Assembly: GCA_030668825.1 (NCBI GenBank)
Contig: DAOVET010000089.1
Coordinates: 1 to 10,663 of the forward strand
Direction of reading: 5' to 3'
Length of the DNA: 10,663 nucleotides
From: Candidatus Heimdallarchaeota archaeon
GTDB taxonomy: Archaea; Asgardarchaeota; Heimdallarchaeia; Heimdallarchaeales; Heimdallarchaeaceae
Every line of letters starts with the position of its first letter. Positions within the stretch are counted from its first letter, which is position 1. The notes beneath the pieces were generated by a model. It saw only the letters and a list, made by a program, of their open reading frames with translations, did not search any database and was not told the DNA's origin. The position numbers and the translations under genes were made by a program. Shown piece by piece: positions 1-10,663 of the stretch.

Positions 1-732
1 TAAATCTGCATGTAACCAGTTTATTTGTTCATCAAATGTTCCTCCGTAATCGGGTACACAAGTATGTAAAGCTACAAAATGAATAGGTCCATAGTTAAAA
101 GAATAATATTCTTCTTTTCCAGGAAATGCAAAATTATTATAATAATTTGAACTATTTTTTTCATGATTACCCAGTGCTGACATAAAAGGAATTTTATTCA
201 GAAAAGTATTAAAATCATAGAACCAATTAGTCCATTGAAGTGCATCAAGACCAGAATCTACAAAATCTCCTGTGAATATGGCAAAATCTGCTGATACTTT
301 TGACATTTGCCTTGCTGAAAATACTCTGTCTGCTCGATTGTGTCTTGAATCTCCCATAGCAAAGAAGGTTGCATGGTCGCCTATGTTTCCTGTCTTAAAA
401 TCCCGATCTGAACTCCAAGTCTCTCCATTACCAACTCTAAAGTGATATGCTGTATTGGGAGCCAAACCTGTTAGCTCAATTACGTGATACAATCCTGAAG
501 ACCCTGTTTCCTCTAAACCATAAGTGCTATCGAGTCCATATTGTACAATAGACGAAGTGCTTTCAGATGTTTTCCAACTAATTGTCATGGTCGTGCTAGT
601 ATCATTTTGCCAACTAAGATGTACCTCTTTGGGATGAATCTCTTCAGCTGATACTTGAAAGAACTGGACTGAAGCTGGCATTATAAAAATCGATATTAAT
701 GTAATAACAAGTAATTTTCTTTTAGTACTCAT
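1..732 (-). CDS. Secreted metallophosphoesterase (purple-acid-phosphatase-like N-terminal FN3 domain + calcineurin-like catalytic domain); 3' end truncated by the window edge
   Basis: Manual translation from ATG at 732 is open for 244 codons to position 1: MSTKRKLLVITLISIFIMPASVQFFQVSAEEIHPKEVHLSWQNDTSTTMTISWKT...YHVIELTGLAPNTAYHFRVG...FFAMGDSR...FAIFTGDFVDSG...ALGNHE...YYSFNYGPIHFVAL...EQINWLHADL. It has a basic/hydrophobic signal peptide ending near VSA|EE, an FN3 signature (LTGLxPNTxYxFRV), and metallophosphoesterase motifs GD, GDxV and GNHE. Confidence 0.9.
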   Translation of the reverse strand, partial: MSTKRKLLVITLISIFIMPASVQFFQVSAEEIHPKEVHLSWQNDTSTTMTISWKTSESTSSIVQYGLDSTYGLEETGSSGLYHVIELTGLAPNTAYHFRVGNGETWSSDRDFKTGNIGDHATFFAMGDSRHNRADRVFSARQMSKVSADFAIFTGDFVDSGLDALQWTNWFYDFNTFLNKIPFMSALGNHEKNSSNYYNNFAFPGKEEYYSFNYGPIHFVALHTCVPDYGGTFDEQINWLHADL

Positions 733-755
733 CAAGTATAATAAAAAATTTACAC

Positions 756-768
756 AATTTAAAGTTTG
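756..768 (-). promoter_or_regulatory. Putative archaeal BRE/TATA promoter for the phosphoesterase (probably leaderless transcript)
   Basis: Minus strand reads CAAAC-TTTAAATT (TATA-like element 763-756), ending about 24 nt upstream of the ATG at 732. There is no SD motif. Confidence 0.5.
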
Positions 769-816
769 CTTACCTTTTTATGAAGAAAGCAGATGCAAAA
801 AGTGAGTAAGTGGATG

Positions 817-984
817 TTATTTCTGATTTCCCATTGTTGTTGTAGATAATTTTCGTCTAAGCTTTCTATTGGTAACTCCTTTATTCAGTTTTCGGATAAC
901 CCATAAAATAAAACCAGATAAAAGTCCAAAGAAACCAATTACTATGAAAACACTAAATATTGTTGGGATGAATATTGGAGCCAT
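817..984 (-). CDS. Small (55 aa) single-pass membrane protein, function unknown
   Basis: MAPIFIPTIFSVFIVIGFFGLLSGFILWVIRKLNKGVTNRKLRRKLSTTTMGNQK*. It has one long hydrophobic stretch followed by a strongly basic tail (positive-inside rule), an AGGTG SD-like motif at 999-995, and fills the gap between two same-strand genes. It is absent from the ORF track, probably because it is too short. Confidence 0.65.
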   Translation of the reverse strand: MAPIFIPTIFSVFIVIGFFGLLSGFILWVIRKLNKGVTNRKLRRKLSTTTMGNQK

Positions 985-1020
985 TGTTATCTAACACCTA
1001 CTCAAAGAAAATCTTATACA

Positions 1021-1033
1021 TTTTTAAACTTTT
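1021..1033 (-). promoter_or_regulatory. Putative archaeal BRE/TATA promoter for the small membrane protein
   Basis: Minus strand AAAAG-TTTAAAAA (1033-1021), about 37 nt upstream of ATG 984, leaving room for a short leader around the AGGTG motif. Confidence 0.4.
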
Positions 1034-1053
1034 ATGTTGGAGAATTAATGTCG

Positions 1054-1803
1054 CTAGTTTATGATTATCAAGTTATTTGATTCATTTATATGAACATCTA
1101 CTCGCATTTTGTTAGGTGATTCAAGTCTTAGCTCCCCGGTATTAGAAATACCTCTACATAAATACACTTCAGATTTGTACGAGTGTTTTTTATTCATGTT
1201 GAGTGAGTTCATATTAAACAAGGAAATTATTTTCTCGTAGTTCTCCTCCATAACTAAATTAACATACTCAAATATACATTCTGAAAGGATTCTAGTGAAT
1301 TCATTTTTCTGAATTTGATTTCTAGTAACTTCTTCTAAACTTGTAGCTCTTAACCGTTCAAAAGCTATAGTATTTTCTTCTTTTAATTCAATATTAATTC
1401 CTATTCCCAATAGTAAATATTCTGATTGTAAAGATACCAACTCGAGTAATATTCCACCTAATTTTCTATTTTTGAAAACTATGTCGTTTGGCCATTTTAC
1501 TAAGATTTCAGTTCCATATTTTTTCTTAATAGCTTGTTGAATAGCTAGAGCTGCAGCATAGTGCAAAAAACTATATTGTCTAGGTTGCAATTTGGATGAT
1601 AGTGGGAATGCAAAAGTTCCATATAAACCTCCGTCTGGTGAAAACCAGTCTGAATCCTGCCTTCCCCTCCCCTCTGTTTGTTGTTTAGCCACTACTAGAA
1701 TTGGGTGATCTATATCATTCTTAAGATGCTCGATTATTGCATCCATTGTTGAAGATACCTTTTCATAATGAACAGTGTTCATATAATCTATTCTATGTGT
1801 CAC
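1054..1803 (-). CDS. birA: Biotin--[acetyl-CoA carboxylase] ligase (group I, no N-terminal HTH)
   Basis: Motifs SSTMD, QTEGRGR...WFSP-GGLY, KWPNDI, KLGGILLE and GIGIN are BPL signatures. At 249 aa there is no room for a DNA-binding domain. The start is GTG 1803 (supported by TATA spacing) or ATG 1782. Confidence 0.93.
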   Translation of the reverse strand: MTHRIDYMNTVHYEKVSSTMDAIIEHLKNDIDHPILVVAKQQTEGRGRQDSDWFSPDGGLYGTFAFPLSSKLQPRQYSFLHYAAALAIQQAIKKKYGTEILVKWPNDIVFKNRKLGGILLELVSLQSEYLLLGIGINIELKEENTIAFERLRATSLEEVTRNQIQKNEFTRILSECIFEYVNLVMEENYEKIISLFNMNSLNMNKKHSYKSEVYLCRGISNTGELRLESPNKMRVDVHINESNNLIIIN

Positions 1804-1826
1804 AAGACCGCAACAGAATTGGTATG

Positions 1827-1842
1827 TTATAAAGCTTTTTTC
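1827..1842 (-). promoter_or_regulatory. Archaeal BRE + TATA box for birA
   Basis: Minus strand GAAAAAAGC-TTTATAA: a purine-rich BRE-like run directly followed by TTTATAA (1833-1827), ending about 24 nt before the GTG at 1803, which is canonical spacing for a leaderless archaeal mRNA. Confidence 0.6.
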
Positions 1843-1899
1843 ATTATTTCGTCATAAAAGAAGATGTCGTTTTTATTCGACTCTATATAACTAATACTA

Positions 1900-3477
1900 A
1901 TGTATCTAAATCATAAGAATAGAGCTAGTGATGGAGAAAAAAAGATCTATTCTAAGCTCCATGAGAAGAGAAAGAAAAGTTTGGAAGGAGGAGGGGAAAA
2001 GAGGGTAGAGAATCAGCATAAGAAAGGTAAACTTACAGCAAGAGAAAGAATTGAATTACTTGTTGATGAGAACTCTTTTGTCGAAATAGATTCTTTAGTT
2101 ACACATCAATCTACAAAATTTAATCTTGAAAACAACAAGCCATTAGGAGATGGAGTGGTAACAGGTCATGCAACTATTGCTGAGAGACAAGTTTTCATTT
2201 ACAGTCAAGATTTCACAGTTTTTGGAGGAAGTTTAGGGAGAGCTCAAGCAACAAAGATTTGCAAATTAATGGAGCTTGCAATTAAAACTGGAAATCCAAT
2301 TCTTGGCATATTAGATTCAGGTGGAGCAAGAATTCAAGAAGGAGTTGCATCATTAGCTGGTTATGGAGATATTTTCTTCCGGAATATTCAAGCTTCTGGA
2401 GTGATACCTCAGATTTCTATTATTCTTGGTCCATGTGCAGGCGGAGCGGTTTACTCACCTGCTTTAACAGATTTTGTTTTAATGAATAAAGAAAATTCAT
2501 TTATGTTTGTTACTGGTCCAGAAGTTGTAAAAGCCGTTACAGGGGAGGAAATATCCTTCTACGATTTAGGTGGAAGTGGTGTCCATAGCAAGAAAACAGG
2601 TGTGAGTCATTTAGTTGGTGAAAGTGAAGAAGAAACTTTGGACTTAGCTAGAAAACTACTTTCTTATTTACCTTCAAACAATTTGAATGATCCTCCATTT
2701 GACCCAGAAGTAATAGAAGAAAGTGAACAGATCTCGCTTCGCGAATTAATTCCAGATGAAGAGAATGAACCTTATGATATGAAAAGCATCATAGGAACAA
2801 TTGCTGATTCTGACAGTTTTCTAGAATTGAATGAAGATTGGGCTAAAAACATCATAGTAGGTTTTGCTAGAATGCAAGGGTTTACTGTAGGAATTATTGC
2901 AAATCAACCTCTTTTCTTGGGCGGAGCAATTGATTATAATGCAGCAGATAAAGCTTCTCGATTCATTCGTTTTTGTGATTCTTTCAACATTCCAATATTG
3001 ACATTTGTTGATGTTCCTGGTTTTCTACCAGGTGTCAAACAAGAACATGAAGGGATAATCAGACATGGTGCAAAGCTGCTCTATGCTTATTCAGAGGCAA
3101 CCATTCCAAAGATTTCTATTATTGTACGAAAAGCATATGGAGGAGCTTACATAGTGATGAGTTCCAAGCACCTAGGGACAGATATTAATCTAGCTTGGCC
3201 TTCAGCTCAGATAGCTGTTATGGGAGCAGAAGGGGCAGTTCGAATTCTATACAGAAACAGATTGAAAGAAGAAGAGGAACCTGAGAAAGTTCTTGAGGAA
3301 TTCACTCACAAATTCAAAGAAGAATTCGCAAACCCTTACCAATCAGCAGAATTAGGATATATTGACAAAGTAATTTTTCCTGAAGAAACTAGAAGCGAAA
3401 TTGTTGCTTCTTTACATTTGCTTCAAAATAAGAGAGAACAGTCTCCCAAAAGAAAACATGGAATTTCTCCAGTTTAA
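1900..3477 (+). CDS. pccB: Acyl-CoA (acetyl/propionyl-CoA) carboxylase carboxyltransferase beta subunit / methylmalonyl-CoA decarboxylase alpha family
   Basis: 525 aa with GGG...QHKKGKLTARERI, GDGVVTG, QDFTVFGGSLG, DSGGARIQEG, GPCAGGAVYSPALTDF, DVPGFLPG..QEHEGIIRHGAK, RKAYGGAY and C-terminal KRKHGISPV. Substrate specificity cannot be fixed from sequence alone. Confidence 0.93.
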   Translation: MYLNHKNRASDGEKKIYSKLHEKRKKSLEGGGEKRVENQHKKGKLTARERIELLVDENSFVEIDSLVTHQSTKFNLENNKPLGDGVVTGHATIAERQVFIYSQDFTVFGGSLGRAQATKICKLMELAIKTGNPILGILDSGGARIQEGVASLAGYGDIFFRNIQASGVIPQISIILGPCAGGAVYSPALTDFVLMNKENSFMFVTGPEVVKAVTGEEISFYDLGGSGVHSKKTGVSHLVGESEEETLDLARKLLSYLPSNNLNDPPFDPEVIEESEQISLRELIPDEENEPYDMKSIIGTIADSDSFLELNEDWAKNIIVGFARMQGFTVGIIANQPLFLGGAIDYNAADKASRFIRFCDSFNIPILTFVDVPGFLPGVKQEHEGIIRHGAKLLYAYSEATIPKISIIVRKAYGGAYIVMSSKHLGTDINLAWPSAQIAVMGAEGAVRILYRNRLKEEEEPEKVLEEFTHKFKEEFANPYQSAELGYIDKVIFPEETRSEIVASLHLLQNKREQSPKRKHGISPV

Positions 3478-3481
3478 GGTG
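3476..3481 (+). promoter_or_regulatory. SD-like motif (AAGGTG) overlapping the pccB stop, 6 nt before ATG 3488
   Basis: Sequence ...gtttAAGGTGttattgATGaaa. This supports 3488 rather than TTG 3401 as the megasynthase start and suggests co-transcription with pccB. Confidence 0.6.
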
Positions 3482-3487
3482 TTATTG

Positions 3488-4440
3488 ATGAAAACTAAGA
3501 AACAATTAAAAAAAGAACTTAGATTAAACGAAATAATTTGGGGTTATTCTCCAAAGGGAATAAGTAATCCTCAATTAGCAATTGAACTTTCATTGAATGG
3601 TGGAATTGGTTTAATTGATCTTGAAGGATTAGAAGAAAGTGTTTCGAAAAAAATAATTGAGACTTGTTCAAGTAAGATTCCTTCAGATAAACTGTGGGGA
3701 GTTCGATTCCCTGATGTAGAATCTTTATCGGTTCTATCTGAAGTTGACTCAATACCCATTGGAATTATAGCTTTTGAGGTAGAACAAGACGATTTAGTAA
3801 AACTAGTTTCAAAGCTTAAATGGAAAGTTGCTGAAGTTGTAAATTTGGATGAGGCTCAAAAAAGAACAGACTGGGTAGATTTCTTTTTAGTAAAAGGGTT
3901 TGAATCAGGAGGAAAAATAAGTGATCAAACATCTTTTATTTTGATTCAAGAATTCAATAAGGCTGGATTTCCTTTTATTATTCAAGGAGGTTTTGGTGTC
4001 TATAACATAGTTACAGCTATAGTAGGGGGGGCACTAGGAGTAGTTCTAGAAGGACAACTTTTTCTTCTTCCTGAATGTCCCCTTAGTTCGTTGACCAAAG
4101 AATACCTAGAAAAGCTTGATGAGAACGATACATACATTGCAGGAGAAAGCTTCTCAAACAAATACAGATTGATAGGTAAAATTGCAAATAATTCTATTCG
4201 AGAATTGAAGAAATTTGAGAAAAAAATCTCTGATAAAGGTGAAGAAGAACTACAAGAATTTTTGAAACAACTCTCTAGTAAATCTCATTTCTTTGATTCA
4301 GAAGAAATAAAACATTCATTCCTACCTTGTGATATAGGTTTAAGTTTTGCTCCATTTATAAAGGAAATTTTCGATGATTTAAGATCATTTTTAACTGCAA
4401 TTCAAGACATCATTCAAGACCAAATCAAAACAGTTTCTAC
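3488..4440 (+). other. Domain: degenerate FabK/nitronate-monooxygenase-like TIM barrel (copy 1)
   Basis: NGGIGLIDL...KVAEV...FFLVKGFESGGKI...FPFIIQGGFG...GALGVVLEGQL. It follows the pattern of the FMN barrel, but Lys (3914-3916) sits where ExGGH has His. Boundaries are approximate. Confidence 0.6.
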
Positions 4441-7400
4441 TAACTGGCCTTTTGAAGAAGAAAGCGAATTTGCAAAAAGCCTAAAAATTACCTTTCCTAT
4501 CATTCAAGGCCCTATGGCCAATATTACAGATAAGACTGATTTTGCAATTAAAGTAGCAGAAGAAGGAGCATTACCAGTTTTAGCTATGGGAGGACTATTG
4601 AAAAAAGAAGCTGAGGAACTATTTGCAGAATTCAACTCGAAATTTCCTGAAAATCAGAATTATGCAGGAGGAATTATCGGTCTAGAGGTAATGAAAGAGA
4701 GAAGAGAAGCTCATATATCTCTAATGGTTCAGAACAAAACCCCTATCTGTCTAATTGCAGCAGGATCTATTCAACTAGCAACTAGAATTCAAAAAATGGG
4801 GATGAAAACTATCATTCATACTCCAGCTTTAAGCTTATTCAAGGAAGCTATAAAATATGGTCACCAATATGTAATTTTAGAAGGCTGTGAATGTGGAGGG
4901 CATATAGGTAATCTTACATCTTTAACGCTCTGGGAATCAATCTTACAGTATCTCAGTAATAATGCAGATCAGATATCTGACAAAATCAACATTGTATATG
5001 CTGGAGGTATAGGAGATGAACTTGGAGCTGCTATGCTAGCAGGAATGATTGGGTGTCATCTAGATTTAATAAATCCTGGTATTCAGATGGGAACAGCTTA
5101 TCTTTTCACTGATGAGATTGTAAAAACAAAAGCTCTCACTTCACTGTATCAAGAAAAACTTCTTGATTCAAATATCACCAGAGTTATAGGTTCTACAGTT
5201 AATACACGAGCTCGTGCTGTACCCTCTGAATTTGTATCTAAGACAATTGAAAACGAACGAATTATGATTAAAGAAGGATTGTCTATAAGCGAAAGAAAGA
5301 AACTCTATGAAAAAGATAATTTAGGAGCTCTCAGAATTGCTGCAAAAGCTGAGAACTGGAATGAAGATTATGTACCAGGAGGAGATTCAACACAATTCAA
5401 TTTAGTTGATGAAAAAGAACATGATACTTTAGGATGTTTCATGGCAGGTGAAATTATCAGTTTGAAGCGTAATGTTGTTCAGATTAAAGACCTTCATTAT
5501 GATATTGTAGTGTCTGGTAAAGAACTATTCAGAAATAGAAGAAATTCAATTGAAAAGATGTTAGAAAGAGATATTGTTCATGATGTTCCAGAAATTCAAT
5601 GTTTGGAATTACCATCACAAAATAGAATTGCAATAGTTGGTTTAGGATGTATTTTTCCAGACTCTGCAAATATTGGTGAATATTGGGAAAACATAATTTC
5701 CAAGAAATATTCAATAACTGAAGTTCCAGATTCAAGATGGGATAAAAACATCCATTTTGATTAAGATAAAACAGCTCAAAATAAAACCTACTCCAAGATA
5801 GGGGCTTTTGTAAAAGATTACAAGTTTAATTCTATCAATTATCGAATTCCACCTAAAATATCAGATAGTATGGATGCAGTTCAGAAATGGTCCCTTGACG
5901 CTGCAAAGCAAGCTTTAGAAGATGCAGGTATCTCTATAGATGGAAAAAATAGACTTCCAATTGCAGTAATTATTGGAAATGCTTTAGGGGGGGAAAATCA
6001 AAGAATAACTAACAAAGGATTATTTGTTTCTGAATTCCTTTTTGAGCTAGAAAATAATGCAGTTTTCAAATCACTTGGTGAAAAAGAACAGAATTCTCTC
6101 TTACAAAATCTAAAAGAAAATTATGATGAGAAATTTCCTTCAATTACTGAAGATTCAATGCCTGGAGAATTGTCCAATGTTATATCCGGTCGTATTGCTA
6201 ATGTGTTTAATCTTACAGGTAAGTCTATGACTACTGATGCAGCTTGTGCTTCAAGTATAGCTGCTTTAGATACAGCTATTAAATCATTAACATCTGGTGA
6301 TTTCGATACAGCTTTGGTAGGTGGTGCAGATAGATCTATGGATGTTGCTTCTTATGTAAAATTTAGTAAGATTAGAGCTCTCTCTGCAAAAGGTTCTTGT
6401 CCTTTTGATGAAAGTGCTGATGGTTTTGTTATGGGAGAAGGTGCAGGATTTATGGTCTTGAAAAGATTGGAGGATGCTATTAGAGATGAAAACAAAATAT
6501 ATGCAGTCATCCCAGCTATTGGTTCATCTTCAGATGGTAAAGGGAAAAGTATAACCGCTCCAAATCCAGAGGGACAAAAACAAGCCATTTCAATGGCTCT
6601 CCGTTTAGCAGATTTAACAATAGATGAAATTGATTACATTGAAGCTCATGGTACATCAACTATTGTAGGTGACGCTGTAGAATTAAACGTTCTAAAAGAA
6701 GTTTTTAAGAACCGTAAGAATACAAAAAAACTTGCAGTAGGTTCCATAAAAAGTCAAATAGGTCATCTAAAGGCTGCTGCTGGAATTGCATCTCTGATAA
6801 AAACAACACTTACCATCTATAATAAGATATTACCACCTTCAATAAATGTTCAAACACTTAACCCAAAAATTGATTGGGATAAATCAAATTTAATAATAAA
6901 TAAAGAACCCATTGATTGGGGTGTAGAACAAGGAGTTCTTCGAAGGGCTGGAGTATCTGCTTTCGGTTTTGGTGGAACCAATTTTCACACAATATTGGAA
7001 GAATATTCACCTGAAAAAGTAAAATATATATTTGAAGAAAGCCCTCTTCCTGTTGCTGAAACAATTGATTTGACTTCCCCAAGTGAAATATCTCTTCAAA
7101 GTATCAAACCAAAATTAAGCTTCATGTTTACTGGACAAGGTAGTCAATATCTAGGCATGGCTAAACATCTTTATGAAAATTCTTCAATTGTAGCTCAAAC
7201 TTTTGAGAAAGCAGAAAAAATCTGGTACAGTTATTATAGCTATAGTCTAAAGGAAATAATATTTGGTTCAGAGAAACTCTCTGATGAGGCTAACAAGAAA
7301 AGATTAACTGATACTAAGTTTACTCAACCAGCTTTATTCGTTGTAGATATAGCTATAGCACGACTACTATCTGAAGAAGGTATACTACCTGATATTGTTT

Positions 7401-10400
7401 CTGGACATAGTCTAGGAGAATATGTGGCATTAGTGATCGCGGGTTCATTATCTTTCGAAGATGGATTAAGGGCGGTGATAGAGCGCGGTAGAGCAATGAG
7501 TAGGGCAGGAAATACAGTGCCTGGTGCGATGGCAGCTGTGCTTGCTCCAATTAATATAGTGAAAGAAATACTGGATGAAGTTAAAAAAACCTACCTGACT
7601 ATAGCAAATTATAATTCAAAATCTCAAACAGTTGTTTCAGGTGATATTGAGAGTGTTGAGGAAGTATTAGAAATATCTAAGAAGAGAGGAGTAAAAGCAA
7701 TAAGACTTAATGTATCGACAGCATTTCACTCTCAAATTGTCAAAAATGTAGAAGAAGAAATGGAAAAAGCACTATCCAAAATAGAATTTAAACACCCTTC
7801 TATTCCTGTTTTTAGTAATGTAACAAGCCTTCCTTATCCAAATGATCCTTCATTAATGAGGAATCTTCTAGTGGAACAAATAAGTTCATCTGTACGATGG
7901 GTCGATGAAGTAGAAAACATGTATAAAGCAGGAGCTAGATATTTCGTTGAAGTTGGACCTAAGAAAGCATTGTTCTCTTTTGCTAAAGATATTCTCAAAG
8001 ATAAGAAGGACATAAACGTTTTCAACACTCTAAGTGCAAAGGATGATGATATCAATAAAATCAAAGATACAGTAAACAAAATCATTCAAGCTGGTTATGA
8101 AAACGGTGAAATAGATTTCAGTACTTTGGATCAAAGCTTTGAACATTCTATAGTGCAAAAAGAGATACCAGTTTTTACTTCCAAAAAATCAGATTTCGAA
8201 TCATTCATTCAAAGAAACCCAAGTTTGTTAGAAAATTTCTTGAAAACAGGACATGAAATCTATACTACTTATTTGGGTAAGTCTGAAGCACCAACTGAAA
8301 CCAGAAGTGTTTCTTCTTTGAGTGAAGATTTAATTGGTATTACTGGAGTTGGAATAGGATTACCAGGAAAGAGTCAAAATGTATTTGATGATGAGAACAT
8401 AGATTTGATTCTCTCTGGGCACAATTTCATCGATACTGTTGAAGACAAAATAAAACAACATATTCTTGATAAAAACATCAATCGATTAGTAAAATCTCCT
8501 GATGGTTCTGCATCATTTGAAGAGATAAACGATTTATCTCAAGTAATCAGTTTAGCTGGACAAATAGGCAAATTTGATCCTATCAATGACTTTGGTCTAA
8601 ATGAGAAATTTTTACAGTCACTAGACATCACATTTACTCTTGCTATTTGTGCAGGTTTGGAAGCTTTAACTGATGCAGGAATTCCTTTAGTAAAATCATT
8701 AATAACTACCACAACAGGAAAGGTTCTTGAAGGAGAATGGGCTCTTCCAGAGGAATTACAGGAAGAGACAGGGGTAATCTTTGCTTCAGCTTTTCCAGGA
8801 TATGATAATCTCATTAAAGAAATTAATGAATATCAAGAATCTGGGGGAGAAAGAAGTTTCAGTCGAAATTTTCTATTCAAAATTCTTTCACTGGGGCATG
8901 CACAGTTTGCACAAATGATTAAGGCAAAAGGACCAAACACTCAAATAAATGCTGCTTGTGCTTCTACTACTCAGGCAATTGGTATTGCAGAGGACTGGAT
9001 TAAAACAGGTAGATGTAACAGAGTTATAGTTATAGCTGCAGATGATGCAGCTAGTGAGAACTTACTACCTTGGATTGGTTCAGGATTTTTGGTTGCTGGA
9101 GGAGTTACAACAGAAGGGGAAATAGAAAAAGCTGCACTGCCTTTTGGTAAAAATCGACATGGTCTGATTATTGGATCAGCAGCTGCAGGATTAATAATTG
9201 AAAAAGAATCTGCTTATGAAAAGAGAGGAGTTAAACCTATTGTCGACTTAATAGGTTCCCAATTTACAAACAGTGCTTTCCATGGTTCTAGACTTGATGT
9301 TAAGAACATAACACAAGAATTTGAAACATTTGTTAATAAAGTTGAAAAGAACTATAATATCTCAAGAAAGGAAATCGCAGAAAATGGTATCTTTGTTTCA
9401 CATGAAACTTATACACCTGCACGAGGAGGTAGTGCTGAAGCTGAAATTGAAGCTCTAAAGTCAGTATTCAGATCTGATGTATCCAAGATGATTATCGTGA
9501 ATACAAAAGGTTACACAGGTCATCCCATGGGCGCTGGAATAGAGGAATGTGTTGCAATAAAATCAATGGAGAGGAGTATTATTCCACCAATAGCAAATTA
9601 CACTCAAATTGACCCAGCATTTGCAGGTTTAAACTTCTCAAAAGGAGAAAATAAAAGAGTTAAATATGCAATAAGACTAGCTGCAGGTTTTGGTTCTCAG
9701 ATTGCTTTTACAGCATTTAGATTGAATACTCCTGATGACCGATATGATCTGAATTTTCATGAGAATTGGCTGAATCAGCTGAATGGGAGTCTTGACAGCA
9801 CATTTCTAGATGGTAGAGTTCTAAAGATGAGAACAAAGCTAAGAAAGATAGATTCAGCAGATGAAAAACTTGGAAGGAAACCTGTACTTCATTCGGTCGA
9901 ATCTGACAATGTTCTTTCAGAGCTAACCAATATTATTTCAGAGATAACTGGATATGAGTCTAATTTAATTGAAGCTGATATGCATCTAGAAGAGGATTTA
10001 GGGATTGATACTGTGAAGCAAGCTGAGATTTTTGGTATTGTTAGAGATAAATGGGATCTTGAATTGGATGAAACACTTAGTCTTGCTGAATTTACATCAC
10101 CAAACAAAATAGTGTCATATATTCTGGAGAAACTTCCACATGATCATAAAGAAGAAAGTTCCAAGAAAACAGTTGCTTCAAAATCTATTGATGATTCTAG
10201 TCTTAAAATCCGAATAAGAGAAATTGTCTCCGAAACAACTGGATATGAACCGGATTTAATTGAATATGATATGGATTTAGAAGAAGATTTGGGAATTGAT
10301 ACCATCAAGCAAGCTGAAATCTTTGGGGATATACGAGAAATATATGATCTTCCTCTAGATGAAACTGTAAGTTTAGCAGAATTCAGATCAATTCAAGATA

Positions 10401-10663
10401 TTGCTAATTACGTCTCCAAGTATGCGGTAACAGATGGTACAATCTCAAAAGATGTGAAATTTGATTTAGAGAAGAAAAAGTCAGTACAGATGGAGAGGGA
10501 TGTTAGAATAGATAAAATAATCGTATCACCAGCGAGCTTAAACAAAGAAAAGGCTGAAAAACTGGACTTATCAAATCTATCCTCTCTAGTAATTAACCTT
10601 GAATCATCTCGAACAAGCTCAATTTTAGAGGAATTCTCAAAGAAGAGTTTTCAATATCATGAA
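3488..10663 (+). CDS. Type I FAS/PKS (Pfa-like) megasynthase ER'-ER-KS-AT-KS-ACP-ACP-..., interrupted by one in-frame TAA at 5762-5764; runs off the right edge
   Basis: I translated the frame codon by codon from 5765 to 10663 and found no further stop. Protein similarity runs straight through the stop: VPDSRWDKNIHFD*DKTAQNKTYSKIGAFV. At least 2392 codons in total. It may be an intact gene with a sequence error, or a recent pseudogene. Confidence 0.88.
4490..5520 (+). other. Domain: FMN-dependent enoyl reductase, FabK/PfaD/NMO-like (copy 2)
   Basis: FPIIQGPMANIT, GALPVLA, LEGCECGGHIG (His 4901-4903), IVYAGGIGD, GIQMGTAYLFTDE and GCFMAGE. Boundaries are approximate. Confidence 0.8.
5624..7008 (+). 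other. Domain: ketosynthase 1 (PfaA-like), contains the in-frame TAA
   Basis: RIAIVGLGCIFP, TEDSMPGELSNVISGRIAN, TTDAACASS (Cys 6245-6247), EAHGTST (His 6647-6649), GSIKSQIGHLKAAAG (His 6764-6766) and [22 protein letters not shown]. Confidence 0.92.
7115..8030 (+). other. Domain: acyltransferase (probably malonyl-CoA:ACP)
   Basis: FMFTGQGSQYLGM, TKFTQPALF, GHSLGEY (Ser 7409-7411), ERGRAM, IANYNS..QTVVSG, LNVSTAFHS (His 7727-7729), SVRW and FVEVGP. Confidence 0.92.
8330..9720 (+). other. Domain: ketosynthase 2 (divergent)
   Basis: IGITGVGIGLPG, GLEALTDAGIPL, GPNTQINAACASTTQA (Cys 8957-8959), LPFGKNRHGLIIG, VSHETYTP (His 9401-9403), NTKGYTGHPMGAG (His 9521-9523) and AAGFGSQ. Confidence 0.85.
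9908..10135 (+). other. Domain: acyl carrier protein 1 (Thr at the phosphopantetheine site)
   Basis: VLSELTNIISEITGYESNLIEADMHLEEDLGIDTVKQAEIFGIVRDKW...LSLAEFTSPNKIVSYI. It matches the Pfa-type ACP pattern TGY..L...M.LE.DLGIDS except for S->T (ACT, 10010-10012). Confidence 0.88.
9938..10385 (+). repeat. Diverged direct repeat (291-nt period) corresponding to the tandem ACP duplication
   Basis: gatatgcatctagaagaggatttagggattgatactgtgaagcaagctgagatttttgg versus gatatggatttagaagaagatttgggaattgataccatcaagcaagctgaaatctttgg. Many differences are at third codon positions. Confidence 0.75.
10202..10425 (+). other. Domain: acyl carrier protein 2 (Thr at the phosphopantetheine site)
   Basis: IREIVSETTGYEPDLIEYDMDLEEDLGIDTIKQAEIFGDIREIY...VSLAEFRSIQDIANYV, with Thr codon ACC at 10301-10303. 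Confidence 0.88.

What the first reader, a model, noticed from the sequence alone, without database searches (positions are those of the whole stretch)
1054..10663. Type I fatty-acid/polyketide megasynthase cluster (birA <-> carboxyltransferase - FAS/PKS) in an apparently archaeal genome
Seen: a >2390-codon KS/AT/ACP megasynthase directly behind an acyl-CoA carboxyltransferase, a divergent biotin ligase, and neighbouring genes with BRE/TATA boxes about 24 nt from their starts plus AGGTG motifs. Known: archaea build isoprenoid ether membranes and generally lack ACP-dependent FAS or type I PKS machinery. Inference: this is an archaeal ACP-dependent acyl-chain pathway, relevant to the 'lipid divide'. 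The low GC and gene style would fit an Asgard/Heimdallarchaeia-like host, but that is only an impression.
Basis: partly seen in the sequence, partly recalled or inferred. Interest (0 to 1): 0.88.

Follow-up and report, generated by a model that had tools for sequence, protein, structure and literature searches.

The report
Asgard archaeal fatty-acid megasynthase gene cluster
This contig from a Heimdallarchaeia archaeon carries a biotin ligase, a malonyl-CoA-forming carboxylase subunit and a giant all-in-one fatty-acid/polyketide synthase that many Asgard archaea share, which gives a testable route by which the closest archaeal relatives of eukaryotes might make bacterial-style fatty acids.

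Summary
Window 1054-10663 encodes a BirA-like ligase (-), an acyl-CoA carboxyltransferase (+) and one truncated megasynthase (+): ER'-ER-KS-AT-KS2-ACP-ACP, cut by the contig end. One in-frame TAA (5762-5764) is private to this assembly. Contigs of four other runs read GAA there, and dN/dS is about 0.16-0.18 on both sides.

The host is archaeal. The bin has an archaeal 16S fragment, and its genus includes Heimdallarchaeota AB_125. This is not a chimera: composition is native, and the same cluster lies on closed 3.3 and 4.4 Mb Asgard genomes.

Intact relatives encode BirA, CT, a 3,300-3,800 aa ER'-ER-KS-AT-KS2-ACPn-KR-DH-PPTase, an alpha/beta hydrolase, BCCP and biotin carboxylase. 67 of 400 Asgard genomes carry it. 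Where the fused FabK-type ER is missing, a FabI-type ER gene follows the synthase.

The Asgard KS sequences form one clade beside Desulfobacterota homologues, while the CT is archaeal-type. Every carrier domain has Thr where the phosphopantetheine Ser should be.

Most likely this is an iterative, fully reducing, PUFA-synthase-related fatty-acid synthase fed by its own carboxylase. Its product and its membrane role are inferred, not shown. I rate it a new variant of a known kind, and it has barely been discussed in print.

The parts
1..735 (-). Neighbour gene: N-terminal part of a secreted purple-acid-phosphatase-like metallophosphoesterase, cut by the contig start. It is syntenic in same-genus relatives but has no evident role in the pathway.
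   Evidence: Pur_ac_phosph_N 69.8 bits and Metallophos 36.8 bits. The same gene lies beside birA in G013 and G001.
817..984 (-). Small 55-aa hydrophobic ORF between the phosphatase and birA, with AGGTG 10 nt upstream of its ATG. Whether it belongs to the cluster is unknown.
1054..1803 (-). Biotin-protein ligase (BirA-like, without a detected DNA-binding domain), divergent from the carboxyltransferase gene. Inferred to biotinylate the BCCP of the cluster.
   Evidence: BPL_LplA_LipB 72.3 bits. It lies next to CT in 6 of the 8 Asgard relatives' loci examined; in the two f3 loci no birA lay within the stretch read.
1900..3477 (+). Acyl-CoA carboxylase carboxyltransferase (beta) subunit, 525 aa, archaeal-type. 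Inferred to supply malonyl-CoA.
   Evidence: Carboxyl_trans 620.8 bits. The nearest named relatives are Asgard, then Bathyarchaeota at 59% identity. It lies directly upstream of the megasynthase in all 8 relatives' loci examined.
3477..3490 (+). AGGTG (3477-3481), overlapping the last base of the CT stop codon (TAA, 3475-3477), then 6 nt, then ATG 3488. This is the probable Shine-Dalgarno site and start of the megasynthase.
3488..10663 (+). Megasynthase gene, first ~2,390 codons of about 3,360. It runs off the contig end just after the second carrier domain.
   Evidence: The intact 95%-identical homologue in G013 has 3,385 aa counted from a TTG start.
3557..4228 (+). ER' : first, weakly matching FabK/NMO-like TIM-barrel domain. 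It may be degenerate or structural.
   Evidence: Coordinates carried over from G013 residues 53-276 (FabK TIGR03151 35 bits, NMO 29.6 bits). The domain was detected in the window ORF by phmmer.
4466..5281 (+). ER: FabK-type (FMN) enoyl reductase domain.
   Evidence: NMO 93.4 bits. The best solved matches are FabK enoyl-ACP reductases 7l00 and 2z6i.
5621..7024 (+). KS1: PKS/PfaA-type ketosynthase with Cys 6245-6247, His 6647-6649 and His 6764-6766.
   Evidence: ketoacyl-synt, Ketoacyl-synt_C and KAsynt_C_assoc. TIGR02813 PfaA is the best NCBIfam hit for this domain in the G013 homologue (394.5 bits).
5762..5764 (+). In-frame TAA inside KS1. It aligns with Glu in the nearest relatives, and 4 of 4 other runs read GAA. 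It is an assembly error or a rare variant of this sample.
7121..8032 (+). AT: malonyl-type acyltransferase with GQGSQ, GHSLGE (Ser 7409-7411) and TAFHS motifs.
   Evidence: Acyl_transf_1 178 bits. FabD TIGR00128 scores 249 bits in the G013 homologue.
8318..9730 (+). KS2: second, FabF-like ketosynthase with an intact Cys-His-His triad (8957-8959, 9401-9403, 9521-9523).
   Evidence: FabF TIGR03150 145 bits. The best solved matches are KAS II enzymes.
9920..10123 (+). ACP1, with Thr (ACT, 10010-10012) at the position of the phosphopantetheine-bearing Ser (motif DLGIDTVKQAE).
   Evidence: PP-binding. The Thr aligns to the Ser of PigH and AcpM carriers.
10211..10414 (+). ACP2, with Thr (ACC, 10301-10303) at the same position (motif DLGIDTIKQAE).

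Best explanation
The window is a native piece of a Heimdallarchaeia genome, from the genus that holds AB_125. It carries the first half of a conserved six-gene Asgard module: birA <-> CT - megasynthase - alpha/beta hydrolase, then BCCP and biotin carboxylase.

Proposed mechanism:
1. BirA biotinylates BCCP.
2. BC, BCCP and CT carboxylate acetyl-CoA to malonyl-CoA.
3. The fused Sfp-type PPTase domain arms the tandem carrier domains.
4. The AT loads malonyl units.
5. KS1 and KS2 condense them iteratively, probably dividing the work by chain length.
6. KR, DH and the FabK-type ER reduce each round fully, giving a saturated acyl chain.
7. The hydrolase releases the chain.

Shown here: gene content, domain order, intact catalytic motifs, conservation, purifying selection, archaeal host, and non-orthologous replacement of the ER.

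Inferred: the enzymatic activity, a saturated fatty-acid product, and release by the hydrolase.

More speculative: free fatty acids are passed through the expanded DegV/FakB-like proteins and the PlsY homologues into acyl-glycerol-phosphate lipids.

Origin: the synthase gene probably entered Asgard archaea once from bacteria related to Desulfobacterota and was placed beside the host's own archaeal-type carboxylase genes.
For: Host and integrity
- The window is all of contig C129 of a 138-contig, 2.76-Mb bin, 90.6% complete and 4.67% contaminated.
- The bin's 16S fragment fits the archaeal model at 626 bits.
- Tetranucleotide correlation of C129 to the genome is 0.9855, against a median of 0.9869 for the 44 contigs of 8-14 kb. 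The synthase part scores 0.977, against 0.982 +/- 0.007 for random 7.2-kb pieces.

Conservation
- A KS1 match at E<=1e-60 occurs in 67 of 400 Asgard genomes.
- By family: f1 26/30, f2 1/1, f3 11/12, f4 2/3, f7 12/12, f19 3/14, f20 11/135, f5 0/22.
- The carriers include single-contig genomes G054, G055 and G134.
- The full cluster is present in f1, f7, f19 and f20 loci. A variant is present in f3.

Domains
- ER'-ER-KS-AT-KS2-ACP-ACP-KR-DH-PPT.
- Catalytic motifs are intact.

A full reductive cycle is needed
- In f3 the synthase lacks the ER domains, and the next gene is a FabI-type enoyl-ACP reductase (233-237 bits).
- No FabA-type dehydratase/isomerase was found in the synthase or in 0 of 31 f1 genomes.

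The gene is under selection and intact in nature
- dN/dS is 0.16-0.18 both upstream and downstream of the TAA, against two relatives.
- Position 5762 reads G in 4 of 4 other runs from 4 studies.

Origin
- Asgard KS1 sequences form one clade: 64 rows at 99 in FastTree, and 31 rows at SH-aLRT 96 in IQ-TREE.
- That clade lies inside a 100-supported clade with Desulfomonilaceae-type, Desulfobacter-type and Solirubrobacteraceae homologues.
- CT relatives are Asgard, then Bathyarchaeota.

Lipid context
- PlsY: 3 copies in G000, 3 in G013, 3 in G055 and 6 in G081. One copy abuts birA in closed genome G055.
- DegV: 31 of 31 f1 genomes, mostly 9-19 copies (3 in the small bin G019), 12 in G000.
- DegV and PlsY are neighbours on G000:C105.
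Against: - No expression or product data exist. No RNA run was listed as holding the stretch.
- The carrier domains have Thr, not Ser, at the attachment site. By recalled E. coli precedent, the ACP S36T mutant is not modified by AcpS, which could mean the carriers cannot be armed by ordinary PPTases.
- This genome's own copy has a stop and is truncated. KR-DH-PPT, the hydrolase and BCCP were not found in the bin. Only a biotin-carboxylase fragment was found, at the end of contig C93.
- The route from synthase to lipid is incomplete.
  - PlsX was found in 0 of 5 genomes.
  - FakA matches cover only the N-terminal Dak2 part and none reaches the cut-off.
  - A clear GpsA was found only in G134.
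  - PlsC was found only in G134.
- The hydrolase matches only generic alpha/beta-hydrolase families and is absent from the f3 clusters.
- The archaeal ether-lipid gene CarS is present in 29 of 31 f1 genomes. A passage in PMC13400652 says that lipid analysis of the cultured Lokiarchaeon found only archaeal lipids.
- The bacterial homologues sit in Desulfobacterota, which I assume have ordinary FAS II (not checked here). If so, that fits a specialised product at least as well as bulk fatty acids.
Confidence: 0.6

Rival explanations
1. The same genes make a specialised ('secondary') lipid or polyketide rather than bulk fatty acids for membranes. Examples would be a very-long-chain or hydroxylated acyl product, a hydrocarbon precursor, a storage or signalling lipid, or an acyl donor for protein or glycolipid modification.
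For: - KS1, the ACPs and KR resemble PfaA of PUFA synthases best. PUFA synthases and their relatives make secondary lipids (recalled knowledge).
- The nearest bacterial homologues are in Desulfobacterota, which I assume have ordinary fatty-acid synthesis (not checked here).
- The distribution in Asgard is patchy: 67 of 400 genomes, and 0 of 22 in family f5.
- CarS is retained in 29 of 31 f1 genomes.
- Two ketosynthases and 2-5 tandem carriers are features of PUFA-type machines.
Against: - The module has its own carboxylase and biotin ligase, and in one closed genome it sits beside plsY.
- There is no FabA-type isomerising dehydratase.
- ER function is preserved by gene replacement in f3.
- No tailoring genes are conserved around the cluster.
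Confidence: 0.28
2. The carrier domains are not phosphopantetheinylated at all, because Thr has replaced Ser. The enzyme would then work on CoA- or otherwise-bound substrates, or be catalytically dead in the classical sense.
For: - Thr occupies the Ser position in 245 of 278 carrier motifs of the 120 long ER-bearing homologues.
- Recalled precedent: Ser-to-Thr ACP mutants are not modified by E. coli AcpS.
Against: - The Thr is invariant across hundreds of diverged sequences, while the rest of the carrier motif is kept.
- A motif-intact Sfp-type PPTase is fused in 73 of the 98 Thr-only proteins.
- Protein P0059 mixes Ser and Thr carriers, which suggests the two are interchangeable.
- The gene is under strong purifying selection.
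Confidence: 0.07
3. In this particular organism the gene is a recently inactivated pseudogene, and the TAA is real.
For: The deposited contig reads TAA at 5762-5764 inside KS1.
Against: - 4 of 4 other runs from 4 studies read G at 5762, with 0-1 other differences over the laid stretch.
- dN/dS downstream of the stop is 0.16-0.17, the same as upstream.
- There are no further stops or frameshifts in 2,390 codons.
Confidence: 0.05
4. The contig is bacterial contamination of the bin, or a chimeric assembly.
For: - The contig is short (10.7 kb) and the bin has 4.67% estimated contamination.
- The synthase family also exists in bacteria.
Against: - The same gene order lies on closed 3.33-Mb and 4.36-Mb Asgard genomes and on 216-474 kb contigs.
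- The 10 closest named loci are all Heimdallarchaeota.
- The flanking CT is archaeal-type.
- The tetranucleotide profile is typical of the bin on both sides of position 1900.
Confidence: 0.01

Closest known systems
PUFA synthase / PfaA-type 'secondary lipid' synthases (PfaA-E)
   Same: - KS-MAT-tandem ACP-KR-DH order.
- PfaA (TIGR02813) is the best NCBIfam hit for the KS, ACP2 and KR segments; for the AT segment FabD scores higher.
- It uses an FMN/TIM-barrel type ER and a dedicated Sfp-type PPTase.
- It is an iterative, malonyl-fed machine.
   Different: - Everything is on one polypeptide, with the ER at the N-terminus and the PPTase at the C-terminus.
- There is a FabF-like KS2 with an active Cys instead of a KS-CLF pair.
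- There are no FabA-type dehydratases.
- The ER is nearer FabK (76.5 bits) than PfaD (25.9 bits).
- The carriers have Thr, not Ser.
- It is clustered with acetyl-CoA carboxylase genes.
- The host is archaeal.
Enediyne PKSE (KS-AT-ACP-KR-DH-PPTase); architecture recalled, not tested here
   Same: - The core order is the same, with a C-terminal fused PPTase.
- It is an iterative PUFA-related type I synthase.
   Different: - PKSE has no ER, no second KS and a single carrier.
- PKSE makes a polyene and pairs with a hot-dog thioesterase.
- Here the reductive set is complete and the neighbour is an alpha/beta hydrolase.
Fungal / corynebacterial-mycobacterial type I FAS; architecture recalled
   Same: - All FAS activities are on a megasynthase.
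- It has an FMN-dependent TIM-barrel ER and a C-terminal PPTase.
   Different: - The domain order is different.
- There is no MPT.
- The KS-AT is PKS-type.
- There are tandem carriers.
- There is no evidence here of the barrel architecture.
Uncharacterised homologues in Desulfobacterota and other bacteria
   Same: - The Desulfomonilaceae type has the same ER'-ER-KS-AT-KS2-ACPn-KR-DH-PPT order.
- It has the same Thr carriers.
- It falls in one 100-supported KS1 clade with the Asgard sequences.
   Different: - Identity is 30-35% in the ER region and about 46-52% in KS1.
- The three bacterial loci seen have no hydrolase, BCCP or BC downstream.
- The Desulfobacter type adds a second KS1-like domain and lacks the PPTase.
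ACP-independent archaeal fatty-acid synthesis (ketothiolase/DUF35 complex; bioRxiv 10.1101/2024.07.05.601840, passages read)
   Same: Both are proposed routes to fatty acids in archaea, Asgard included.
   Different: - That system is CoA-based and built of separate thiolase-type enzymes.
- This one is carrier-domain-based, malonyl-fed and of bacterial PKS/FAS ancestry.

Membership tests
PUFA synthase (Pfa) family | PfaA-like KS-MAT-tandem ACP-KR-DH core | tested here: met
   The domain order is shown. TIGR02813 gives partial hits of 394.5 bits (KS), 190.2 (AT), 52.9 (ACP) and 152.9 (KR). The segments were scored separately, so the 1010-bit whole-protein cut-off was not applied.
PUFA synthase (Pfa) family | KS-CLF pair plus FabA-type dehydratase/isomerase domains (PfaC), which introduce cis double bonds | tested here: not met
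   No PF07977 hit in the 3,385-aa homologue. 0 of 31 f1 genomes have a FabA-family match, and the control genomes were positive. KS2 keeps its Cys, so it is not a CLF.
PUFA synthase (Pfa) family | PfaD-type enoyl reductase | tested here: inconclusive
   The ER is of the NMO/TIM-barrel type. TIGR02814 pfaD_fam scores only 25.9 bits against 76.5 bits for FabK TIGR03151, and both are far below their cut-offs.
PUFA synthase (Pfa) family | Carrier motif LGIDS with Ser as the phosphopantetheine site | tested here: not met
   Both carriers read DLGIDT. The Thr aligns to the Ser of solved carriers.
Enediyne PKSE | KS-AT-ACP-KR-DH-PPTase with no ER, plus a hot-dog thioesterase partner (recalled definition) | tested here: not met
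   Two ER domains and a second KS are present. The neighbour is an alpha/beta hydrolase. No PKSE-specific model was available to score.
Animal-type FAS / highly reducing iterative PKS | MDR-type (zinc-ADH-like) ER between DH and KR, and a terminal TE | tested here: not met
   No PF00107 or PF08240 hit. The ER is NMO-type and N-terminal, and the C-terminus is a PPTase.
Fungal/CMN type I FAS | Order AT-ER-DH-MPT-ACP-KR-KS-PPT (recalled) | tested here: not met
   The order found is ER'-ER-KS-AT-KS2-ACP-ACP-KR-DH-PPT. Only the ER type and the terminal PPT agree.
Biotin-dependent acyl-CoA carboxylase | Carboxyltransferase, biotin carboxylase, BCCP and a biotin ligase | tested here: met
   - CT scores 620.8 bits and BPL 72.3 bits in the window.
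- BCCP (Biotin_lipoyl, 61.7 bits) and BC (CPSase_L_D2 and Biotin_carb_C) are in the G013 cluster and in all 8 relatives' loci examined.
- In G000 itself only a BC fragment was found, at the end of contig C93.
- Substrate choice (acetyl- versus propionyl-CoA) was not tested.
Holo-carrier formation by an Sfp-type PPTase | Ser hydroxyl as acceptor; PPTase motifs (V/I)G(I/V)D..E and (W/F)xxKE(A/S)xxK (recalled motifs) | tested here: inconclusive
   PPTase motifs are present in the G013 homologue (PIGIDIE, WTIKEAITK), with ACPS at 72.5 bits. The acceptor is Thr. Whether Thr is modified cannot be tested with these tools.
Asgard (Heimdallarchaeia) genome | Archaeal rRNA in the bin; nearest genomes named Heimdallarchaeota; synteny with closed genomes of the group | tested here: met

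The most novel reading that the evidence does not exclude
Asgard archaea, including Heimdallarchaeia, run a self-sufficient, carrier-dependent type I fatty-acid synthase. Its carrier domains are phosphopantetheinylated on threonine by the synthase's own co-evolved PPTase domain, forming an orthogonal carrier/PPTase pair not described before. Its saturated fatty acids are handed through the expanded DegV/FakB-like proteins to PlsY. These archaea would then make fatty-acyl glycerol-phosphate lipids beside their isoprenoid ether lipids, which is the mixed-membrane state that models of eukaryote origin require.
Probability: 0.2. Interest if true: 0.92.

Novelty: new variant of a known kind. Interest (0 to 1): 0.78.

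Why it matters
Eukaryotes have bacterial-type fatty-acid ester membranes but branch from within or beside Heimdallarchaeia. How and when the membrane changed is a long-standing open question.

A 2024 preprint still states that archaea encode neither FAS I nor FAS II and nearly all lack ACP and ACP synthase (10.1101/2024.07.05.601840, passage).

What this report adds:
- A complete, conserved module under purifying selection: carboxylase, a fully reducing megasynthase with its own carriers and PPTase, and a hydrolase.
- The module is widespread in Heimdallarchaeia and in a subset of Lokiarchaeia-like genomes, closed genomes included.
- These genomes also carry PlsY and an unusual expansion of fatty-acid-binding DegV proteins.

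This turns 'can Asgard archaea make fatty acids?' into a directly testable question with a named gene.

Two side results have value of their own:
- A large, apparently undescribed synthase family has Thr at the carrier attachment site, tightly linked to a second, FabF-like ketosynthase.
- A bacterial synthase has been grafted onto native archaeal carboxylase genes.

Tried and rejected
Searches and scans that gave nothing useful
- Rfam scan of the window: no RNA family.
- Sigma-70 promoter and terminator scans of 600-3600 were at chance level: 11 promoter-like sites against 11.4 +/- 3.2 expected, and 2 terminator-like sites against 1.3.
- Archaeal TATA consensus TTTAWATA: 0 matches against 3.3 expected. 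The promoter argument was dropped.
- Recoding of TAA as a sense codon was considered and rejected. The CT gene ends with TAA, relatives have GAA at the site, and other runs read G.

The rest of the gene in this bin
- Not found by the genome search or tblastn.
- The bin is 90.6% complete, so this shows an assembly gap, not absence.

RNA evidence
- No RNA holder is listed for window 5300-6300.
- Expression is therefore untested.

Trees
- A modular-PKS outgroup was intended, but none of the chosen rows passed my length filter.
- Both trees are midpoint-rooted, so the direction of transfer is inferred only from the bacterial identity of all outer groups.
- No AU test was run.

Bacterial contexts
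- The metagenome scan with P0163 returned only 3 loci, all cut upstream. Whether the bacterial versions have carboxylase genes upstream is unknown.
- In the Solirubrobacteraceae and Chloroflexia genomes, the CT matches lay either on contigs whose numbers differ from the record suffix of the synthase contig or more than 100 kb from it. The numbering between the two sources was assumed to correspond, not verified.

GGGPS
- PcrB (PF01884) was not found above cut-off in 5 of 5 genomes, although CarS is present.
- I treat this as a possible miss of the model, not as absence.

Jobs not run
- No structure prediction, fold search, complex prediction or protein-atlas job was run. Sequence models already named every domain, and a carrier-enzyme or KS-KS complex job would pass by likeness to solved structures.

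Literature
- Nine searches were made.
- None describes the architecture, the carboxylase clustering, the distribution or the Thr carriers.
- The carrier motif strings occur in no carrier-protein paper.
- Subscription journals are not in the library and supplements were closed. Both may hold relevant tables, for example Table S3 of PMC7472256 and the BGC catalogues of PMC12016038 and PMC13635244.
- Papers seen only as passages: PMC7472256, PMC13635244, 10.1101/2024.07.05.601840, PMC12136173, PMC12139934, PMC13400652, PMC9385802, PMC11948995.
- Recalled and not seen: Shulse and Allen 2011 on secondary-lipid clusters; enediyne PKSE and FAS architectures; the E. coli ACP S36T result; the division of labour between the two PUFA-synthase ketosynthases; Eme et al. 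2023 names.

Full report
**What is in the window.** The window is the whole of contig C129 (10,663 bp) of a 138-contig, 2.76-Mb genome bin. It holds these features:
- 1-735 (-): the N-terminal part of a purple-acid-phosphatase-like protein.
- 1054-1803 (-): a BirA-like biotin-protein ligase.
- 1900-3477 (+): a 525-aa acyl-CoA carboxyltransferase (Carboxyl_trans, 621 bits).
- About 3488 to the contig end (+): one long frame.

The long frame contains two FabK/NMO-like enoyl-reductase domains, a PKS-type ketosynthase (KS1), a malonyl-type acyltransferase, a second FabF-like ketosynthase (KS2) and two carrier domains. An AGGTG at 3477-3481 overlaps the last base of the CT stop codon and lies 6 nt before ATG 3488. 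This is the likely start of the megasynthase.

**The stop codon.** The long frame is broken once, by TAA at 5762-5764 inside KS1.
- The codon aligns with Glu in 3 of 5 relatives, and with Thr or Pro in the other two.
- Contigs of four public runs from four studies, none flagged as the source, match the stretch with 0-1 other differences. All read G at 5762, at full depth: 34.3 of 34.3, 8.16 of 8.16, 23 of 23 and 4.8 of 4.8.
- dN/dS against two near relatives is 0.16-0.18 both upstream and downstream of the stop.
- The stop is therefore an assembly error or a rare variant. The gene is intact in the population.

**Whose DNA it is.**
- The bin has a 16S fragment that fits the archaeal model (626 bits).
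- In named genomes, 21 loci were found. The 10 closest to KS1-AT (57-95% identity) are all titled Candidatus Heimdallarchaeota, and an eleventh is titled 'uncultured archaeon' (52%). The best bacterial locus reaches 47%.
- G010 of the same genus is the AB_125 record, with matching contig length and coordinates.
- Tetranucleotide composition of the contig, and of the synthase part alone, is typical of the bin.
- The cluster also lies on single-contig Asgard genomes of 3.33 and 4.36 Mb and on contigs of 216-474 kb.

**The complete module.** In the 95%-identical G013 homologue the gene has 3,385 codons. Its order is ER'-ER-KS1-AT-KS2-ACP-ACP-KR-DH-PPTase (Sfp type). It is followed by a 272-aa alpha/beta hydrolase and, on the other strand, by BCCP and biotin carboxylase.

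Catalytic motifs are intact in that homologue:
- Cys-His-His in both ketosynthases.
- GHSLGE and AFHS in the AT.
- The glycine-rich nucleotide-binding motif and Y..AN in the KR.
- His and Glu/Gln motifs in the DH.
- GIDIE and WTIKEAITK in the PPTase.

The module birA, CT, synthase, hydrolase, BCCP and BC recurs in loci of families f1, f7, f19 and f20. In G000 itself the contig ends after ACP2. Only a biotin-carboxylase fragment at the end of contig C93 was found of the remainder.

**A natural experiment on the ER.** In family f3 the synthase starts at KS1 and has no ER domains. The gene immediately downstream is instead a FabI-type enoyl-ACP reductase (PF13561, 233-237 bits, in both loci examined).

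Replacement of a fused FabK-type ER by a separate FabI-type ER shows that enoyl reduction is needed. No FabA-type domain occurs in the synthase or in any of 31 family genomes. Together these points favour a fully saturated product.

**Distribution and origin.** With KS1 as query at E<=1e-60, 67 of 400 Asgard genomes match.

| Group | Genomes with a match |
|---|---|
| f1 (own family) | 26/30 |
| f2 (same order) | 1/1 |
| f3 (same order) | 11/12 |
| f4 (same order) | 2/3 |
| f7 (same class) | 12/12 |
| f5 (same class) | 0/22 |
| f19 (other class) | 3/14 |
| f20 (other class) | 11/135 |

- Proteins with the same architecture carry source names from Heimdallarchaeota, Heimdallarchaeaceae, Hodarchaeota, a truncated name beginning 'Candidatus Kari', Promethearchaeota and Lokiarchaeum. 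Bacterial ones are named from Desulfomonilaceae, Desulforegulaceae, Desulfobacula, Desulfobacter and Desulfospira, at 30-35% identity in the ER region.
- In KS1 trees all Asgard rows form one clade: 64 rows with support 99 in FastTree, and 31 rows with SH-aLRT 96 in IQ-TREE with LG+C20.
- That clade is in an unresolved polytomy with three bacterial groups, inside a 100-supported clade. A shorter bacterial family (ER'-ER-KS-AT-ACPn-KR-DH) lies outside.
- The roots are midpoint only, so 'bacteria to Asgard, once' is the parsimonious reading but is not proven.
- Within Asgard the tree does not follow taxonomy. Lokiarchaeia-like sequences are sister to the window's family, so later transfers among Asgard lineages are likely.
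- By contrast, the CT's nearest relatives are Asgard, then Bathyarchaeota at 59%. The three bacterial loci seen lack hydrolase, BCCP and BC downstream. The module looks like a bacterial synthase joined to native archaeal carboxylase genes.

**Threonine carriers.**
- Both carriers of the window read DLGIDT(V/I)KQAE. The Thr aligns with the phosphopantetheine Ser of solved carriers.
- Among the 120 long ER-bearing homologues, 98 have only Thr carriers. All 98 have KS2, and 73 have a fused PPTase. A further 19 have only Ser, and 18 of those lack KS2. One protein is mixed and 2 are cut before the carriers. In total there are 245 Thr motifs and 33 Ser motifs.
- An exhaustive search with the carrier pair gave 150 best cluster representatives, of which 148 were examined.

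| Carrier type | KS2 detected | Proteins |
|---|---|---|
| Thr only | yes | 59 |
| Thr only | no (mostly fragments) | 34 |
| Ser only | no | 51 |
| Ser only | yes | 1 |
| Mixed | yes | 2 |
| No motif | no | 1 |

- Thr carriers and the FabF-like KS2 therefore travel together in a large family.
- I found no paper that prints the motif in this context.
- Whether Thr is phosphopantetheinylated cannot be decided here. The fused, motif-intact PPTase, the invariance of the Thr and one protein with mixed Ser and Thr carriers argue that it is.

**Lipid context of these genomes.**
- PlsY homologues: 3 in G000, 3 in G013, 3 in G055, 6 in G081 and none in G134.
- One PlsY copy abuts birA of the cluster in closed genome G055.
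- DegV/FakB-family proteins occur in 31 of 31 f1 genomes, mostly at 9-19 copies (3 in the small bin G019) and 12 in G000. None of the four control archaea has one.
- On G000:C105 a DegV gene and plsY are 1.8 kb apart.
- PlsX was found in 0 of 5 genomes.
- FakA-like matches cover only the Dak2 part.
- PlsC and a clear GpsA occur only in the Lokiarchaeia-like G134.
- CarS occurs in 29 of 31 genomes. PcrB/GGGPS was not detected in 5 of 5, which I regard as a possible model miss.
- A path synthase -> free acid -> DegV/kinase -> acyl-phosphate -> PlsY is thus plausible but has gaps. The archaeal ether-lipid route is retained.

**Comparison with what is known.**
- The nearest known kind is the PUFA-synthase/PfaA group of iterative type I synthases.
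- The C-terminal PPTase recalls enediyne PKSE and fungal FAS. The ER is FabK-like and KS2 is FabF-like.
- The synthase fails defining features of each group: no FabA-type DH or CLF, no Ser carriers, a different domain order, and ER and KS2 present. It is best called a new architectural variant.

**Literature.**
- A 2024 preprint states that archaea have neither FAS I nor FAS II and mostly lack ACP.
- A 2026 paper notes plsY and plsC in Asgard metagenomes (PMC13400652).
- Public records name these proteins only generically, for example 'SDR family oxidoreductase' or 'Pks15/1'.
- My nine searches cover open-access text only, and supplements were closed. Prior description elsewhere cannot be excluded.

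**Verdict.** The module is native, conserved, under selection and complete in relatives. Its chemistry (saturated fatty acids) is a well-supported inference. Its role in membranes and the chemistry of the Thr carriers are open, testable and potentially important.

Noticed in passing
G000 genome-wide (e.g. C96:4920-5750, C115:8117-9906, C105:2212-3063) and all f1 genomes: DegV/FakB-family fatty-acid-binding proteins are strongly expanded. They occur in 31 of 31 genomes of the family, mostly at 9-19 copies, with 12 in this 2.76-Mb bin. None of the four control archaea has one.
   Followed up: partly
G055:C1:564206-564820 (L042:6150-6893); G000:C105:2203-5638: A PlsY homologue lies directly beside birA of the cluster in a closed genome. 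In G000, DegV and PlsY are neighbours, with a divergent alpha/beta hydrolase next to them.
   Followed up: partly
G000, G013, G055, G081, G134: No PcrB/GGGPS match above cut-off in 5 of 5 Asgard genomes, although the control archaea match and CarS is present in 29 of 31 f1 genomes. The GGGPS may be divergent, or the model may miss it.
   Followed up: no
window 817-984 (-): A 55-aa ORF with one hydrophobic stretch, preceded by AGGTG 10 nt upstream of its ATG. Its conservation in relatives was not checked.
   Followed up: no
G000:C80:564-812 (-): A free-standing 82-aa ORF with a weak PP-binding match (23 bits) and no Ser or Thr at the usual site, next to a 310-aa ORF that I did not scan against Pfam.
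   Followed up: no
G000:C93:3-455 (-): A biotin-carboxylase fragment, 94% identical to the G013 cluster gene, runs off the start of contig C93. This contig probably lies across the assembly gap from the window.
   Followed up: partly
L013 (G001:C9) 3084-8032: In G001 an extra CT and an extra biotin carboxylase are inserted between birA and the CT of the cluster, so the carboxylase genes are duplicated there.
   Followed up: no
G054:C1:485278-488509: In closed genome G054, KS1 matches twice, 2 kb apart, in open frames of 1,510 and 2,729 aa. This could be a duplication or a disruption of the synthase gene.
   Followed up: no
proteins P0146, P0160: Two proteins whose source names say Bathyarchaeia and Zixibacteria sit inside the Asgard KS1 clade. 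This probably reflects mis-binned contigs or recent transfers.
   Followed up: no
protein P0059 (3,626 aa): It is the only long ER-bearing homologue (1 of 120) with mixed carriers: Ser, Thr, Ser.
   Followed up: no
proteins P0172, P0185, P0193 and relatives: The Desulfobacter-type homologues carry two KS1-like domains in tandem before the AT, four Thr carriers and no fused PPTase.
   Followed up: no
L051-L053 downstream of the bacterial synthase: The three Desulfomonilaceae-like metagenome loci share ORFs of matching sizes downstream. Scanned in L053 only, these are a sigma-54 activator with cNMP-binding and 4Fe-4S domains, a polyprenyl synthetase, a BamD-like lipoprotein and a UDP-glucose dehydrogenase.
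   Followed up: partly
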